From a virus (lineage: Duplodnaviria > Caudoviricetes), in IMG/VR virus record IMGVR_UViG_3300028591_000183, positions 1 to 64,000 of that record: a DNA stretch of 64,000 nt; one strand, written 5' to 3'. The notes under the pieces are model-generated. The model did no database searches and was not told the DNA's origin. It was given only the letters and a program-made list of their open reading frames with translations. The translations under genes and the position numbers were made by a program. Positions 5,456 to 26,647 of this stretch are shown here, piece after piece (within the stretch, counting starts at the first letter, position 1; each line of letters begins with the position of its first letter).

Positions 5456-6109
5456 ATGAGTTTAACAAATCCGAACACCCCTGTTAGCCAACAGGACTTA
5501 CAAGACTTTTATCATAAAATTCTTCCTTATATGGGAGGAAGTAGCGAAGGTGGTGGAGGACACACCATAGAAGATAGTGAAGGAACAGACCTCACGCAGA
5601 GAGATACCTTGCAGTTTGGCGAGGGATTTAAGGCAGAGGATGATTCTACCAATGAGAAAACTGTTATCTCACCCGATGTAATGCAGAGTGGGGATATGAG
5701 TGATGTTATTACACCACTTCCTTCTGTAGCACCAAGGAAAGAAGGGATTAAGTATTCTACTACTGAACAGGTAATTGGCGAGTGGATAGATGGAAAGCCA
5801 TTGTATCAGAAGACTATTTATGTTTCTTCACTTGCAGGTACATATTGGGTAGAAGGTAATCATGGAATAGCAGATGTTGACTTCATTCGTTGTGTAGAAT
5901 TTACACCTGTACATATAAATAATAATGATTTTGATTTTTCTCAAATGAACATAAATACCAATAACACATATTGGGATGAAAAAAGGTCAATTATATTAAA
6001 CTATGTAAGTAGGACAAAATATGAGATTTTTATTGGTTCAGAAATTAATTCTAGTTATAGTTGCTACATGACACTTCAATACACCAAAACAACAGATACC
6101 GCAGAATAA
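5456..6109 (+). CDS. adhesin paralogue (one WIDG domain)
   Basis: Shares the domain, and its RBS and N-terminus, with its neighbours. Confidence 0.7.
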   Translation: MSLTNPNTPVSQQDLQDFYHKILPYMGGSSEGGGGHTIEDSEGTDLTQRDTLQFGEGFKAEDDSTNEKTVISPDVMQSGDMSDVITPLPSVAPRKEGIKYSTTEQVIGEWIDGKPLYQKTIYVSSLAGTYWVEGNHGIADVDFIRCVEFTPVHINNNDFDFSQMNINTNNTYWDEKRSIILNYVSRTKYEIFIGSEINSSYSCYMTLQYTKTTDTAE

Positions 6110-22557: not shown

Positions 22558-23109
22558 ATGAAAAGGTTTATCGGACTATTGATGTGTCTGCTTCTGATAG
22601 CAGGATGTTTGTCCGTATCTCAAACAGACGAGGGAGATGAAAAGGTAGCAGTTGTTGATACTAAGAAAATTGAATATTTGACAGATGAACAACTTTCACT
22701 TCTTTATTCCTGTAAGCAGGATATCAGAAAAAAGGATGATTCTATCGTTGAATTATCGCAATCCGATGCATGGCTGTTGATGCAGGTTGGCAGATGTGAG
22801 GGTGGAGCTTCTTTAATCGGACAGATGTGGGCTATGAGAACCATCTTAAACCGATTAGATGCAGGATGGTCTGATTCTCTGTTAGGCGTTCTTACAATGG
22901 ATAACCAATTTGAGGTTATTTCAAGCGGAAAGTACAAGAGTGCAGATATCAATGTTGAAACTCATTTGGCTTTGGCTTGTATCGAGAGCGGTTGGGATGA
23001 CACCGAAGGAGCTTTGTATTGGGAATCCAATACTAATTCAGATGAATCATGGCACAAGAAGAATCTAACGTTCATCAAAGAAGTTGCAGGAAACATTTAT
23101 TACAGGTAA
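22558..23109 (+). CDS. SleB/Hydrolase_2-family cell wall hydrolase with N-terminal signal
   Basis: RCEGG...TILNRL...NQFE pattern. Confidence 0.8.
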   Translation: MKRFIGLLMCLLLIAGCLSVSQTDEGDEKVAVVDTKKIEYLTDEQLSLLYSCKQDIRKKDDSIVELSQSDAWLLMQVGRCEGGASLIGQMWAMRTILNRLDAGWSDSLLGVLTMDNQFEVISSGKYKSADINVETHLALACIESGWDDTEGALYWESNTNSDESWHKKNLTFIKEVAGNIYYR

Positions 23110-23344
23110 CTAGAAATATTTGTCTGTATCATTGGTGGGTTGTTACCCATCAATGTATTAATCCTTTCAGAAAGAAAACAAAATTATAAAGTTTCCGTGC
23201 CTAGCCATACCCAACTAAGTCAATTAACATGATGGCTCTAATAGCACATACTATAAAGAACAGGACAATATAGGACAATACAGGAAAAGACAGGACAAGA
23301 CAATATATAAAAAATTAACAACTCACCTGTGATGCAGACAAATA

Positions 23345-23378
23345 AAAAGCGATTAAGTTCGCACCTTAACCGCTTTTA
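23345..23378. terminator. hairpin terminator
   Basis: AAAAGCG(A)TTAAG...CTTAACCGCTTTT. Confidence 0.6.
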
Positions 23379-23456: not shown

Positions 23457-24128
23457 ATGGCAACAAAGAAAACAGAAAGTAACGTATTTGAGATTAAACC
23501 CTTGGATATTCAGAAGTTATCAATTCGTATTAAGGGTGACTCGCCATTGATTGTTCACGCTTGGAGCGAAAAAGCAAAAAAACAAATTCTTGATAAACAG
23601 ATGAAGATTACAAAAACTTCTGCGAAAGAAGCACGAAATCCATATCGAGAGTTTATTGATTCAATGTATTGGCTTACGCCAAAGCCCGAAGCTACACCCG
23701 ATGCGTTTGCAGAAGCCGTAAAGAATGGCGCAAAGTGGGGTTTTCCTGTGACGGGAATTAAGCAAAGTGCTAATTCAACAGCATACAGACTTGGTTGGAC
23801 TCCTAATCAAACCATGCTTAGATGCGCTTATTTTATAGAGAGTGAGTATGGAGAATTGTTTGAAATCAAGGGTTCAATTCCCGAAATACGTGAAGATAAC
23901 GTCACAATCGGCATGGGAACTGCGGATTTGCGTTATCGTGCAGAATATAAAGATTGGTATGCAGATATTGTTGTAAGTTATAACAGGTCGGGTGCATTAA
24001 CACTTGAACAGATACTTAACATAATCAACGCAGGTGGCTATTCGTGCGGACTTGGCGAATGGAGAGCCGAAAAAGACGGTATTTTTGGGCGTTATCATAT
24101 TGAGTCTAGCAACACTATTAGCGATTAA
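23457..24128 (+). CDS. Cas7/RAMP-like RNA-binding protein; candidate effector of the adjacent pentamer array
   Basis: N-terminal strand IKGDSPLIVH, DLRYRAEY..W, and a C-terminal Gly-rich loop GLGEWRAEKDGIFGRY. The fold is inferred, not searched. Confidence 0.7.
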   Translation: MATKKTESNVFEIKPLDIQKLSIRIKGDSPLIVHAWSEKAKKQILDKQMKITKTSAKEARNPYREFIDSMYWLTPKPEATPDAFAEAVKNGAKWGFPVTGIKQSANSTAYRLGWTPNQTMLRCAYFIESEYGELFEIKGSIPEIREDNVTIGMGTADLRYRAEYKDWYADIVVSYNRSGALTLEQILNIINAGGYSCGLGEWRAEKDGIFGRYHIESSNTISD

Positions 24129-24135
24129 GCGATTT

Positions 24136-24568
24136 GGCAGTTTTGGTATGGTTCTCTATGGTGGGTTTTGTTATGGTTACGTTGGTTTTGGCAGTTATGG
24201 TGCGTTATGTTGCGTTAAGGAAAGGTGCGCTATGGCGGGATTTGGTAAGGCAGTTAAGGCGAGGTGCGGTTAGGTATGGTAGTTTCGGGTTTGTTAAGTT
24301 GAGGTATGGTGAGTTATGGCAGTTACGGCACGTTAAGTTCAGTTGAGGTAAGTTCAGTTTCGGTGAGGTTTGTTATGGTATGGCAGTTTTGGTGGGTCAT
24401 GTTATGGCAGGGTCTTGTACGGTCTTGTTAGGTTTGTTGGGATAAGGCAGTTAAGGTTAGGTGAGTCGAGGTTTGTTTAGTCGAGGTTAGGTGAGTTGTT
24501 GCAGTTATGGTGTGTTTAGGTAGATTTGGGTAAGTTATGATTAGGTCAGTTTAGGCAAGGCGTGGTTC
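24136..24568 (+). ncRNA. array of seven GGCA-delimited units of G(G/T)Y-NN pentamers; candidate guide RNAs
   Basis: Units start at 24136, 24190, 24249, 24318, 24382, 24446 and 24500, with lengths 4+5n and 81 pentamers in total. Confidence 0.8.
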
Positions 24569-24595
24569 TTATTAAATTTAAAAAGGAGTTTGGAT

Positions 24596-25090
24596 ATGGT
24601 TTATTCATGGAAAACATTTCAATATTCTGTTTCTGCTGATGTTGCAGGAAAAGAATTTGAAAAGATTGAAAAAAAATACGGGAAAGTTACATCGGAACTG
24701 CTTTTGCAAAACGCAGAACCTATAGAATCCCCACTACATGAGCTTTTCGAGTGGGATGATGCTGTAGCAGGTCGTAAATACCGACTTTCACAGGCTACAA
24801 ATATTATCATCAATCTTGCTGTAGAGGTTGAAAAGGAACAGAAACCTAAGAAAATCCGTGCGTATTATAACGTGAGTGATACCGAGAAAAAGGGACGTTT
24901 TATTAACGCTGAAACAGCATTTTCAAATCCCGATACAAAAGAAATTATTCTGAAAAGAGCTTATCGTGAAATGCAATCTTTTGTGCAGAAATACGAGAAC
25001 CTTACAGAATTTGCGCCTGTATTTAAGGCGATAGAATCAATCAAAAAAGACATATTAGGAGATGAAGCAGATGAACAACTTGAAGATTGA
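24596..25090 (+). CDS. conserved phage protein directly downstream of the array
   Basis: AAGGAG RBS; SPLHELFEWDDAVAGRKYRLSQA motif. Confidence 0.75.
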   Translation: MVYSWKTFQYSVSADVAGKEFEKIEKKYGKVTSELLLQNAEPIESPLHELFEWDDAVAGRKYRLSQATNIIINLAVEVEKEQKPKKIRAYYNVSDTEKKGRFINAETAFSNPDTKEIILKRAYREMQSFVQKYENLTEFAPVFKAIESIKKDILGDEADEQLED

Positions 25091-25889
25091 ACAACAGCAG
25101 GGACTTATCACCACTAACCTTGACGCTATCGAAACTGAAATAAAAGAAAAGATGGCTGAATACAAGGATTATGTAGTCAGCGAGGATTCGATTAAGTCCG
25201 ACAAAAAGGTTTTAGCAGATTTGCGTAAGACCAAAAAGGAACTTGATGACGCAAGGAAAGAAGTCAAAAAGGCTTGGTTAGAGCCGTATGAGAAGTTTGA
25301 GGAACGCTGTAAGGCAGTAATAGCCTTGGTTGACGAGCCTATCAACCTCATAAATGACCAATTAAAGCTGTTTGACGAAGAACGTGTCGCAAGAAAACGT
25401 GAACACGTCAAAGAACTTTATGACGAAGTTATGAGCAAGCAAGGCTTAGAGCGTTTTTTGCCACTTGAAAAAATCTACGATTCAAAGTGGGATAACGTTT
25501 CTGTAAAAGACCAAGATATCCTGTTTGATATTGACGGGATGGTGCTGAAAGTCAAGAACGACTTAACAGCTATTAGAGCTTTAAACTCTGAAATCGAAGA
25601 CGAGTGTATTGAAACTTATTTGAGATTCAATAACGACTTGTCAATGGCGATTCAGAGAAATTCACAGTATCTTGCAGATAAACAGAAGATTGCTGAACAG
25701 GCTAAAGAAGTGGCTAATCCCGAACCTCAAACAGAAGTAGTTGAGGAAACTCCTAAGTCTGCACCATTACAGCAGTTGGATGACCTTGCTAAGACTATCC
25801 GTATGCACCACTTCATTGTAAGCGAAGCAGATGCAGAGGAAGTTAGAAACTTGCTTAATTTAAGCGGAATAACATTTAGGGAGGAATAA
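25071..25889 (+). CDS. DUF1351 family coiled-coil protein
   Basis: ITTNLDAIE...KK..A.LRK.KK.LDD.RK.VKK pattern, located before ERF. Confidence 0.8.
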   Translation: MNNLKIEQQQGLITTNLDAIETEIKEKMAEYKDYVVSEDSIKSDKKVLADLRKTKKELDDARKEVKKAWLEPYEKFEERCKAVIALVDEPINLINDQLKLFDEERVARKREHVKELYDEVMSKQGLERFLPLEKIYDSKWDNVSVKDQDILFDIDGMVLKVKNDLTAIRALNSEIEDECIETYLRFNNDLSMAIQRNSQYLADKQKIAEQAKEVANPEPQTEVVEETPKSAPLQQLDDLAKTIRMHHFIVSEADAEEVRNLLNLSGITFREE

Positions 25890-25894
25890 AAAGT

Positions 25895-26647
25895 ATGAAC
25901 GTGTATGAAAAGTTATTGGTTGTACAAAAGAAGCTAAACGCCCCCAAATCGAAGTTCAATAAGTTTGGGGGATACAACTATCGTTCTTGCGAAGATATTT
26001 TGGACGGTGTGAAACCTTTACTTGTTGAGGTTAAAGCCACATTATTCATGACCGATGATGTGGTTCAGATAGCAGAGAGAATCTATGTAAAGACCACGGC
26101 TAAGTTTGTTGACATTGAAAGCGGAGAAGCCGTTGAAAACACGGCATTTGCAAGAGAACCTTTGGCTATGAAGGGCATGGCAGACAGCCAAATTACAGGA
26201 GCATCTTCCACTTATGCTAGAAAGTATGCGCTAAATGGACTTTTCTGCATTGATGATACTGTAGACGAGGACACAAGCGAAGTATCTGATGAAGAAAGAA
26301 AAAAGGCTGAACAGGCTAAGAAACAGGCTGATAAAGAAGCCCAAGATAAGCAAAAAGCTCAAAGACAGGAGCAGATAAAGAATGAGCAGGATGCTCAAAA
26401 GACGGATGAACAGAAAAATCAAGAAATGATAAATTCTGTAGACCCTAGACTTCTTCCTACCGAGGATGATGTTATGTCAAGGGCGCAGTATGACTTCTTG
26501 ATGGAGCAGATTCAGCGTACAGGAGCGCATGATGATGTTGTTAAGTACGCTAAAACAGATGATTTAAGCAAGCTCAATTCTAAGAAGTGCGTGGCTATTC
26601 TTATCGGACTTTTGAAACGCCCTACTAAGGAGCAGACTAATGGCTGA
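25895..26647 (+). CDS. erf: ERF-family single-strand annealing protein
   Basis: NAPKSKFNKFGGYNYRSCEDIL and QITGASSTYARKYALNGLF. Confidence 0.9.
   Translation: MNVYEKLLVVQKKLNAPKSKFNKFGGYNYRSCEDILDGVKPLLVEVKATLFMTDDVVQIAERIYVKTTAKFVDIESGEAVENTAFAREPLAMKGMADSQITGASSTYARKYALNGLFCIDDTVDEDTSEVSDEERKKAEQAKKQADKEAQDKQKAQRQEQIKNEQDAQKTDEQKNQEMINSVDPRLLPTEDDVMSRAQYDFLMEQIQRTGAHDDVVKYAKTDDLSKLNSKKCVAILIGLLKRPTKEQTNG

What the first reader, a model, noticed from the sequence alone, without database searches (positions are those of the whole stretch)
24136..24568. Decoded NN strings give seven searchable gapped target patterns
Reading positions 4-5 of each pentamer gives U1 TT AT TC AT GG TT AT TA TG TT; U2 AT GC AT GC AA AA GC AT GG TT AA; U3 AA GA GC TA AT AG CG TT AA GA AT GA AT; U4 AC AC AA CA GA AA CA TC GA TT AT AT; U5 TT GG AT AT AG CT AC CT TA TT GG AA; U6 AA TA GA GA TT TA GA TA GA GT; U7 AT GT TA AG TG AA AT TA CA TA AA GT TC. 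The strings are all different, unlike a slippage-born microsatellite. If every third target base is skipped (NNx), U2 and U3 read naturally as codon positions 1-2 (e.g. IAIAKKAIGLK, KEAYIRRLKEIEI). Such a guide would ignore wobble positions and resist synonymous escape. U6 and U7 are TA-rich and fit that frame less well. I found no self-target by eye, but I could not search exhaustively.
Basis: inference. Interest (0 to 1): 0.85.

Follow-up and report, generated by a model that had tools for sequence, protein, structure and literature searches.

The report
Phage VIPR guide-RNA array
The five-base rhythm is a seven-guide RNA array of a VIPR system, a CRISPR-like phage weapon first described in 2026, and its two-letter code reads conserved genes of rival phages, so this is a real new example of a known kind.

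Summary
Observation confirmed. Positions 24136-24568 (+) hold seven units joined by GGCA, each of 10-13 pentamers (G, G/T, T/C, N, N).

The gene upstream (23457-24128) is a Vipr protein: a profile matches the solved SUSP1 Vipr at E=3.9e-12, and the fold is Cas7/Csm3-like. The gene downstream (24596-25090) is a conserved partner gene.

Under skip 1 only:
- U5 matches an Enc34-type SSB gene at 22-23 of 24 bases in more than 116 viral contigs.
- U3 matches Rha regulator genes at 24/26 and 22/26.
- U2 matches an HK97-type portal motif at 19/22.
- U7 matches the start codon of the partner gene, 20/26 in its own copy and 21/26 in a relative.
- U1, U4 and U6 have no target yet.

There is no self-target at 80% or more. 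In two guides shared with the closest relative, NN identity is 39/40, against 61% at neutral codon sites.

In an independent test, 42 guides from other phages gave two perfect hits and 8 hits at 85% or more at skip 1. One shuffled guide did as well, and skips 0, 2 and 3 gave nothing above the shuffles.

This scan has already noted VIPR arrays on other DNA: 438 notes in at least 308 genomes. This is a new member of a known kind.

The parts
23457..24128 (+). vipr gene (223 aa), a stand-alone RAMP/Cas7-like protein that would bind one pentamer per protomer
   Evidence: phmmer against PDB: 36pp_D 'SUSP1 Vipr protein', E=7.9e-5. A family profile gives E=3.9e-12, with both halves aligned. AF2 model with alignment: pLDDT 81. 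Foldseek top hits are Csm3/Cas7 subunits at E about 1e-6. More than 5000 homologues. The called protein P0066 starts at 23457.
24136..24568 (+). vrRNA array of seven guides (U1-U7) joined by GGCA. The following G is shared with the next unit (staggered array).
   Evidence: Parse. No Rfam family. No more RNA structure than shuffles, z=-0.2. The same architecture occurs in relatives. 244 distinct GGCAG-delimited units were found in partner-gene-linked loci.
24136..24189 (+). U1, 10 pentamers; target not found
   Evidence: An orthologous unit in L003 (7011-7064) has NN identity 19/20. No match above shuffles in any set searched.
24190..24248 (+). U2, 11 pentamers; candidate target is an HK97-type portal gene motif
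   Evidence: 19/22 at the same portal motif in 3 of 5 prophage-bearing genomes; the reversed-pattern control gave 0. This is a weaker case: no match at 2 mismatches or fewer in a portal gene among 401 genomes.
24249..24317 (+). U3, 13 pentamers; target is a Rha-family regulator gene
   Evidence: The core of 11 dinucleotides occurs exactly once in IMG/VR (L181 470-501), with 24/26 over the full guide, in frame in a PF09669 gene, E=3.7e-35. A second Rha gene matches at 22/26 in L196, a contig fetched through U5.
24318..24381 (+). U4, 12 pentamers; target not found
   Evidence: The core had 0 exact hits in IMG/VR. No hit at 3 mismatches or fewer in 5 genomes. The best local hit, 20/24, lies in a non-coding frame and is probably chance.
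24382..24445 (+). U5, 12 pentamers; target is an Enc34-type ssDNA-binding protein gene (opposite strand)
   Evidence: In the 80 loci examined, 22-23 of 24 match over the full guide. The site codes TPKYSVSLIIPK in PF10991 genes, E=6e-76.
24446..24499 (+). U6, 10 pentamers; target not found
   Evidence: The orthologous unit in L003 (7252-7305) has NN identity 20/20 and triplet identity 21/30. 0 exact hits in IMG/VR. Hits in 151 Clostridia genomes were no more than the control and were unrelated.
24500..24568 (+). U7, 13 pentamers; reads the start codon region of the partner gene as carried by kin phages
   Evidence: 20/26 at the phage's own gene start (24596) and 21/26 at the start in the closest relative (L003 7672). 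It is the only position of 148,400 in the genome scoring 20 or more. P is about 1e-5 or less at the fixed position.
24596..25090 (+). vap-like accessory gene (164 aa), with its ribosome-binding site at 24583-24588
   Evidence: phrog_15946, no Pfam family. 154 of 162 loci holding a homologue have a pentamer tract next to it. In L004 the order is vipr, this gene, array. No solved relative.
23345..23377 (.). conserved hairpin upstream of vipr; role unknown
   Evidence: A 13-pair stem. The sequence is conserved in L003 upstream of its vipr, while the DNA further upstream is not.

Best explanation
The tract is the guide-RNA (vrRNA) array of a VIPR system carried by a phage contig of about 74 kb. 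The operon is vipr (23457-24128), array (24136-24568), then an accessory gene (24596-25090). Shown here by computation: (1) the upstream protein belongs to the Vipr family; (2) the array has seven units of G-(G/U)-Y-N-N pentamers joined by GGCAG junctions; (3) the NN letters, read two on and one off, spell codon positions 1-2 of conserved genes of other phages. Those genes are an Enc34-type SSB (U5), a Rha regulator (U3), probably an HK97-type portal (U2), and the 5' end of the accessory gene of kin phages (U7). The carrier phage itself lacks the SSB, Rha and portal families. Inferred from the published SUSP1 work and not tested here: the array is transcribed and cut at the junctions; one Vipr protomer grips each G-K-Y triplet and presents the next two bases; the filament pairs these with double-stranded DNA, flipping out every third target base; binding silences transcription of the rival's gene. 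Because the skipped base is the wobble base, synonymous mutations do not free the rival.
For: Vipr membership. In the alignment, H17, R138, C173, W178 and R179 of SUSP1 are conserved and D177 is replaced by E. Architecture. Targets at skip 1 only. Background: three other exact scans of IMG/VR with 20-26 specified bases gave 0 hits. Independent test: 42 guides from other phages' arrays were run against 1.16 Mb fetched only with this phage's guides. At skip 1, 8 guides reached 85% or more (1 shuffled guide did), 4 reached 90% or more, and 2 were perfect. At skips 0, 2 and 3 the counts were 0, 1 and 2, against 2, 1 and 1 shuffled. Wobble alignment. Selection on NN: in the two shared units, identity by pentamer position is 18, 12, 16, 20 and 19 of 20. 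Third codon positions of the flanking genes are 61% identical. Fisher tests give p=0.004 for NN against triplets and p=3e-7 for NN against third positions. No self-target at 80% or more. The carrier lacks PF10991, PF09669 and PF04860. Literature.
Against: Three of the seven guides have no target. The U2 case rests on 86% matches, and 80% is reached by chance for 10-dinucleotide guides in under 1 Mb of AT-rich DNA. No sequence matching U7 at 90% or more was found, so its real target is inferred. The triplet consensus (G/U at position 2) and the lack of a 3' tail differ from the tested type II system, so the biochemistry may differ. The U5 hits are one homologous family, so they count as one event and not as 116.
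Confidence: 0.9

Rival explanations
1. U7 is an autoregulatory guide. It binds the start of the phage's own accessory gene, 28 nt downstream of the array, and tunes that gene's expression. It would not be a weapon against kin phages.
For: Its own gene start is the single best U7 site in the whole genome, at 20/26, and it lies next to the array. No better-matching foreign target was found.
Against: The relative's copy matches better (21/26). The published systems show no self-hits at 80% or more, and they do show guides aimed at relatives' VIPR loci. Protein homologues whose N-terminus fits 12 of 13 decoded residues exist (P0014), but their DNA could not be fetched.
Confidence: 0.15
2. The array is a protein-binding scaffold or sponge RNA, like the TRAP or CsrA binding sites. 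Only the repeated triplets would matter and the NN would be spacers.
For: Triplets spaced by two bases resemble TRAP sites, and the RNA has no more structure than shuffles. This was my first reading.
Against: NN are conserved more strictly than the triplets in shared units. The NN strings match foreign genes at 92-100% under one spacing rule only. The neighbouring protein is a Vipr/RAMP.
Confidence: 0.03
3. The tract is a double-stranded DNA element, such as origin iterons or a packaging site, in the replication and recombination module.
For: It lies just upstream of the DUF1351 and Erf-like recombination genes, and there is some 10-bp periodicity.
Against: Iterons repeat the same sequence, whereas here the units all differ and are exchanged wholesale between relatives. 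The tract travels with vipr and the accessory gene across very different phages and prophages. The code matches foreign genes.
Confidence: 0.02

Closest known systems
VIPR systems with staggered vrRNA arrays (bioRxiv 10.64898/2026.04.26.720920, legend of fig. S18)
   Same: A Vipr protein gene lies next to an array in which the end of one pentamer-repeat guide is the start of the next, with a one-base overlap. There is no CRISPR repeat and no tail. The system is phage-borne and has an accessory gene.
   Different: I could read only the legend, not the figure or tables, so the VIPR type (I-VII) of this locus is not assigned. The triplet here is G-(G/U)-Y, with GTT nearly as common as GGT. The paper's text lists GGY and the variants NNNGG, YNNNG and NNNNG, not this one.
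Type II VIPR of Escherichia phage SUSP1 (same paper; structures in 10.64898/2026.04.26.720927; PDB 36pp)
   Same: A homologous Vipr protein with the RNA-contacting residues conserved. Guides of 9-16 pentamers. The 1-nt skip rule with skips on wobble positions. Targets in competing mobile elements. Guides aimed at relatives' VIPR loci (10.64898/2026.10.15.759431).
   Different: SUSP1 guides are separate RNAs of about 100 nt, each with a conserved 3' tail and pseudoknot. Here there is no tail. Sequence identity to SUSP1 Vipr is low and is detectable mainly in the G-loop half. The accessory gene has no detectable similarity to any solved or named protein.
Class 1 CRISPR-Cas Cas7 (Csm3/Cmr4) filaments on crRNA
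   Same: The same RAMP fold (Foldseek E about 1e-6). One protomer binds per fixed step of guide RNA, and a thumb breaks the guide-target duplex at regular intervals.
   Different: There are no CRISPR repeats, no adaptation genes and no other cas genes. The step is 5 nt with 3 guide bases hidden, not 6 nt with 1. The target is double-stranded DNA read with gaps.

Membership tests
VIPR system | Stand-alone Vipr protein: RAMP fold with G-loop and thumb, homologous to described Vipr proteins | tested here: met
   A profile of 16 homologues against PDB hits only 36pp_D SUSP1 Vipr, E=3.9e-12. The single sequence gives E=7.9e-5. The AF2 model (pLDDT 81) matches Csm3/Cas7 chains.
VIPR system | Residues that grip the G-G-Y triplet in SUSP1 (H17, R138, C173, D177, W178, R179) | tested here: met
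   In the HMMER alignments, H, R, C, W and R are conserved and D177 aligns with E. The residue roles are taken from 10.64898/2026.04.26.720927.
VIPR system | vrRNA of about 9-16 pentamers with a conserved triplet alternating with a variable NN | tested here: met
   Seven units of 10-13 pentamers. Position 1 is G in 75 of 81. Position 3 is T or C in 79 of 81. Position 2 is G (43) or T (33). 15 different NN occur.
VIPR system | Conserved 3' tail with pseudoknot after each repeat tract (type II architecture) | tested here: not met
   Units abut through a 4-nt GGCA junction, with no tail and no structure above shuffles. This fits the 'staggered array' architecture of the same paper instead.
VIPR system | Targets follow the 1-nt skip rule and lie in competing mobile elements, with skips on wobble positions | tested here: met
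   U5, U3, U2 and U7, and 8 of 42 foreign guides, match at skip 1 only.
VIPR system | No self-target at 80% NN match or more on the source contig | tested here: met
   The best non-chance site is U7 at its own accessory gene start, 20/26 = 77%. Other best sites equal the shuffles.
VIPR system | Accessory (vap) gene in the locus | tested here: inconclusive
   A conserved neighbour is linked to arrays in 154 of 162 loci. Whether it equals one of the published vap1-6 could not be checked, because no supplementary tables are held.
VIPR system | vrRNAs are expressed, co-purify with Vipr, and the complex binds and silences DNA | not testable with these tools
No wet data.
CRISPR-Cas | Array of identical direct repeats separating spacers, with adaptation genes cas1 and cas2 | tested here: not met
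   There are no direct repeats longer than the 4-5 nt junction. The neighbouring genes are DUF1351, an Erf-like gene and a cell-wall hydrolase.

The most novel reading that the evidence does not exclude
This clade may be a distinct VIPR variant in two respects. First, triplet position 2 is free to be G or U and drifts at the neutral rate (12/20 identity, against 61% at third codon positions), and guides are released from a tail-less GGCAG junction. That would imply a different RNA grip and processing route from SUSP1. Second, the U7 case may show the limit of the 'wobble-proof' code. The guide reads AG at codon 4, while all 11 serine codons at that position in the accessory genes in hand are TCN. 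This would be escape through the two serine codon families, which the skip rule cannot cover.
Probability: 0.3. Interest if true: 0.55.

Novelty: new member of a known kind. Interest (0 to 1): 0.35.

Why it matters
The locus adds a well-resolved natural example to a class of RNA-guided systems that is only months old. It is a tail-less, staggered seven-guide array in a phage whose relatives come from gut and rumen-type metagenomes. Four of its guides can be read. Together with guides from related phages, they converge on the replication module (SSB, DNA polymerase, primase-like gene), a lysis-lysogeny regulator and the portal of one widespread group of rival phages. This gives testable guide-target pairs outside Enterobacteria and Pseudomonas. 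It also gives a direct population-genetic signature that the NN letters, not the triplets, carry the information. It does not reveal a new principle.

Tried and rejected
- My first reading was a TRAP-like protein-binding RNA or origin iterons. I dropped it after the literature search and the Vipr match.
- Rfam gave nothing.
- BLAST of the locus against the phage collection gave no match.
- The single-sequence AF2 model was useless, pLDDT 37.
- Exact NNx scans that found nothing: U7 full and U6 full in IMG/VR; U4 core in IMG/VR; U7 without its last dinucleotide, and also without its fourth, in JGI metagenomes.
- Cross-search of 35 guides against the five whole related phage genomes gave no cross-targeting except U7.
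- U2 at 2 mismatches or fewer in 401 genomes of one family gave one unrelated hit.
- U6 without its last dinucleotide in 151 Clostridia genomes gave 8 hits against 5 control hits, all unrelated low-complexity sites.
- U4 in 5 genomes gave none.
- I tested whether the AG of the GGCAG junction is part of the guide. The target dinucleotide at that place is not AG.
- I tested whether the last pentamer is a constant handle. Its NN is only mildly biased over 244 units, and two foreign guides match perfectly through it.
- The host was not determined.

Full report
**The observation**

There are seven units, starting at 24136, 24190, 24249, 24318, 24382, 24446 and 24500. Each begins with GGCA (TGCA for the last) and is followed by 10, 11, 13, 12, 12, 10 and 13 pentamers.

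The first three letters of the 81 pentamers are GGT (32), GTT (29), GGC (6) or rare variants. The 4-nt junction shifts the phase by one at each unit, so a single global phase shows nothing and Tandem Repeats Finder sees only fragments. No Rfam family matches. As RNA, the tract folds no better than shuffles (z = -0.2).

**What it is**

My first guess was a TRAP-like protein-binding RNA. The scan's own earlier notes on this stretch used the word 'VIPR-like'. A literature search then found three 2026 preprints. VIPR systems consist of a Vipr protein (a stand-alone RAMP related to Cas7) and vrRNAs of 9-16 pentamers, in which a conserved GGY alternates with variable NN. The NN pair with double-stranded DNA while every third target base is skipped. 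The skip falls on codon wobble positions, and the natural targets are competing phages, satellites and other VIPR loci. The paper also describes 'staggered arrays', in which the end of one vrRNA is the start of the next with a 1-nt overlap. That fits the GGCA|G junction here.

**The protein**

The upstream gene (23457-24128, 223 aa) hits one solved protein only, the SUSP1 Vipr protein (PDB 36pp_D). The single sequence gives E=7.9e-5, and a 16-sequence profile gives E=3.9e-12 with both halves aligned. The residues that grip the triplet in SUSP1 are conserved (H17, R138, C173, W178, R179), and D177 aligns with E. An AlphaFold model built with the alignment (pLDDT 81) matches Csm3/Cas7 subunits of type III, type VII and Cas7-11 complexes at E about 1e-6. 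The family has more than 5000 members in the protein collection.

**The neighbourhood**

The downstream gene (24596-25090, with its ribosome-binding site at 24583-24588) has no Pfam family and no solved relative. It is tightly linked to such arrays. Of 162 loci fetched through it from viral contigs and prokaryotic genomes, 154 have a pentamer tract beside it. In one relative (L004) the order is vipr, this gene, array. Four related phage genomes fetched whole (75-108 kb) each hold exactly one array, all with GGCAG junctions. I collected 244 distinct GGCAG-delimited units.

**Comparison with the closest relative**

The closest relative is L003, with a Vipr protein 87% identical. Its array has 10-11 units, and only U1 and U6 have counterparts there. 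In these two units, identity by pentamer position is 18, 12, 16, 20 and 19 of 20. Third codon positions of the two flanking genes are 61% identical. So the NN positions are under strong purifying selection (39/40; p=3e-7 against third positions and p=0.004 against the triplets). Triplet position 2 drifts at about the neutral rate between G and T. The other units have been replaced wholesale. This is the pattern expected if NN carry the information.

**Targets**

The window's genome is a single 74,238-base viral contig. It holds no site at 80% or more that exceeds shuffled guides at skips 0-3.

- **U7.** At skip 1, U7 scores 20/26 exactly at the start codon of the phage's own downstream gene and 21/26 at the start of the relative's copy. 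The own-gene start is the only position of 148,400 in the genome that scores 20 or more. At the fixed position P is about 1e-5 or less. Protein homologues whose N-terminus fits 12 of 13 decoded residues exist, but their DNA could not be fetched.
- **U5.** Exact scans of IMG/VR were limited to eight. In all 80 loci examined the first dinucleotide also matches, giving 22-23 of 24. The site lies on the opposite strand, in the codons for TPKYSVSLIIPK of Enc34-type SSB genes (PF10991, E=6e-76).
- **U3.** The U3 core (11 dinucleotides) hit once. The full guide matches at 24/26, in frame in a Rha regulator gene (PF09669, E=3.7e-35). A second Rha gene matches at 22/26 on L196, a contig that had been fetched through U5, so two guides meet on one rival phage.
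- **U2.** At 3 mismatches or fewer, U2 hit the same portal motif in three of five prophage-bearing genomes, with no hit for the reversed control. This is the weakest of the four.
- **Background.** Three other exact scans with 20-26 specified bases found nothing, which shows that the background for such patterns is near zero.
- **Carrier phage.** The carrier itself has no PF10991, PF09669 or PF04860 gene.

**An independent test of the rule in this clade**

I took 42 guides from the arrays of other related phages, which played no part in choosing the database. I ran them against the 1.16 Mb of loci fetched with this phage's guides.

| Skip | Real guides at 85% or more | Shuffled guides at 85% or more |
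|---|---|---|
| 0 | 0 | 2 |
| 1 | 8 | 1 |
| 2 | 1 | 1 |
| 3 | 2 | 1 |

At skip 1, four guides reached 90% or more and two were perfect. One perfect guide reads a DNA-polymerase-like motif (62 sites). The other reads the N-terminus of the same SSB gene (35 sites). Others read a primase-like gene and a further conserved gene. Across distinct target sequences the NN positions have 0.03-0.37 bits of entropy and the skipped positions 1.2-1.5 bits. The target dinucleotide opposite the AG of GGCAG is not AG, so the junction is not part of the guide.

**Mechanism**

Shown here: family membership of the protein, the array architecture, selection on NN, and the skip-1 correspondence to foreign genes.

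Inferred from the SUSP1 experiments: transcription and cutting of the array; one protomer per pentamer hiding the triplet and presenting NN; gapped pairing with the target strand inside a filament; and transcriptional silencing of the rival's gene.

**Cautions**

- An 80% match is reached by chance for 10-dinucleotide guides in less than 1 Mb of AT-rich DNA. Only the 85-100% cases and the position-specific U7 case carry weight.
- U1, U4 and U6 remain without targets.
- The U5 hits are one gene family and count as one event.
- A later check of another report of this scan warned against reading broad target classes from 80% matches. I have therefore graded U2 as a candidate only.

**Novelty**

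The class, its code, the staggered architecture and guides aimed at relatives' VIPR loci are all in print. This scan has noted such arrays 438 times in at least 308 genomes. This locus is a new member. Its possibly new details are the G-(G/U)-Y consensus with a neutral second position, the particular target set, and the serine codon-family difference at U7.

Noticed in passing
window 23259-23308: A second 5-nt periodic tract lies upstream of vipr. On the minus strand it reads about nine G-T-Y pentamers whose NN alternate between TT and CT. It is low in complexity and is not conserved upstream of vipr in the closest relative (L003), so it is probably not a core part of the system. It could be a decayed unit, a decoy or an operator.
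   Followed up: partly
window 23345-23377; L003 about 5940-5975: A 13-pair hairpin followed by about 80 nt up to the vipr start is conserved between this phage and its relative, while the DNA further upstream is unrelated. It may be a terminator of the preceding module or a leader element of the vipr operon.
   Followed up: partly
L003 6810-6857: In the relative's array the first unit is followed by a GC-rich hairpin of about 45 nt inserted between two units, unlike all other junctions. It may be an internal terminator or a remnant of a tail.
   Followed up: no
window 24596-24634 and homologues: The accessory protein family has a nearly invariant N-terminus (MVYSWK) and a FEWDD motif. Homologues with adjacent pentamer tracts occur in prophage-like regions of many phyla, including Methanosarcinales archaea.
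   Followed up: partly
window 24605-24607: At codon 4, guide U7 reads AG, while all 11 serine codons at that position in the accessory genes in hand are TCA or TCG. Switching between the two serine codon families changes both read bases without changing the protein.
   Followed up: partly
window 24034-24273 and 24134-24346: Two open reading frames of 79 and 70 aa run through the array. They are artefacts of the stop-poor G/T-rich repeat, not genes.
   Followed up: yes
window 25062-26647: Directly downstream lie a DUF1351 gene and an Erf-like single-strand annealing gene. The VIPR locus therefore sits at the head of the phage's recombination module, and the guides of this clade attack the replication module of rivals.
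   Followed up: no
window 22558-23109: The gene before the locus has a cell-wall hydrolase domain (PF07486, E=1.4e-8).
   Followed up: no
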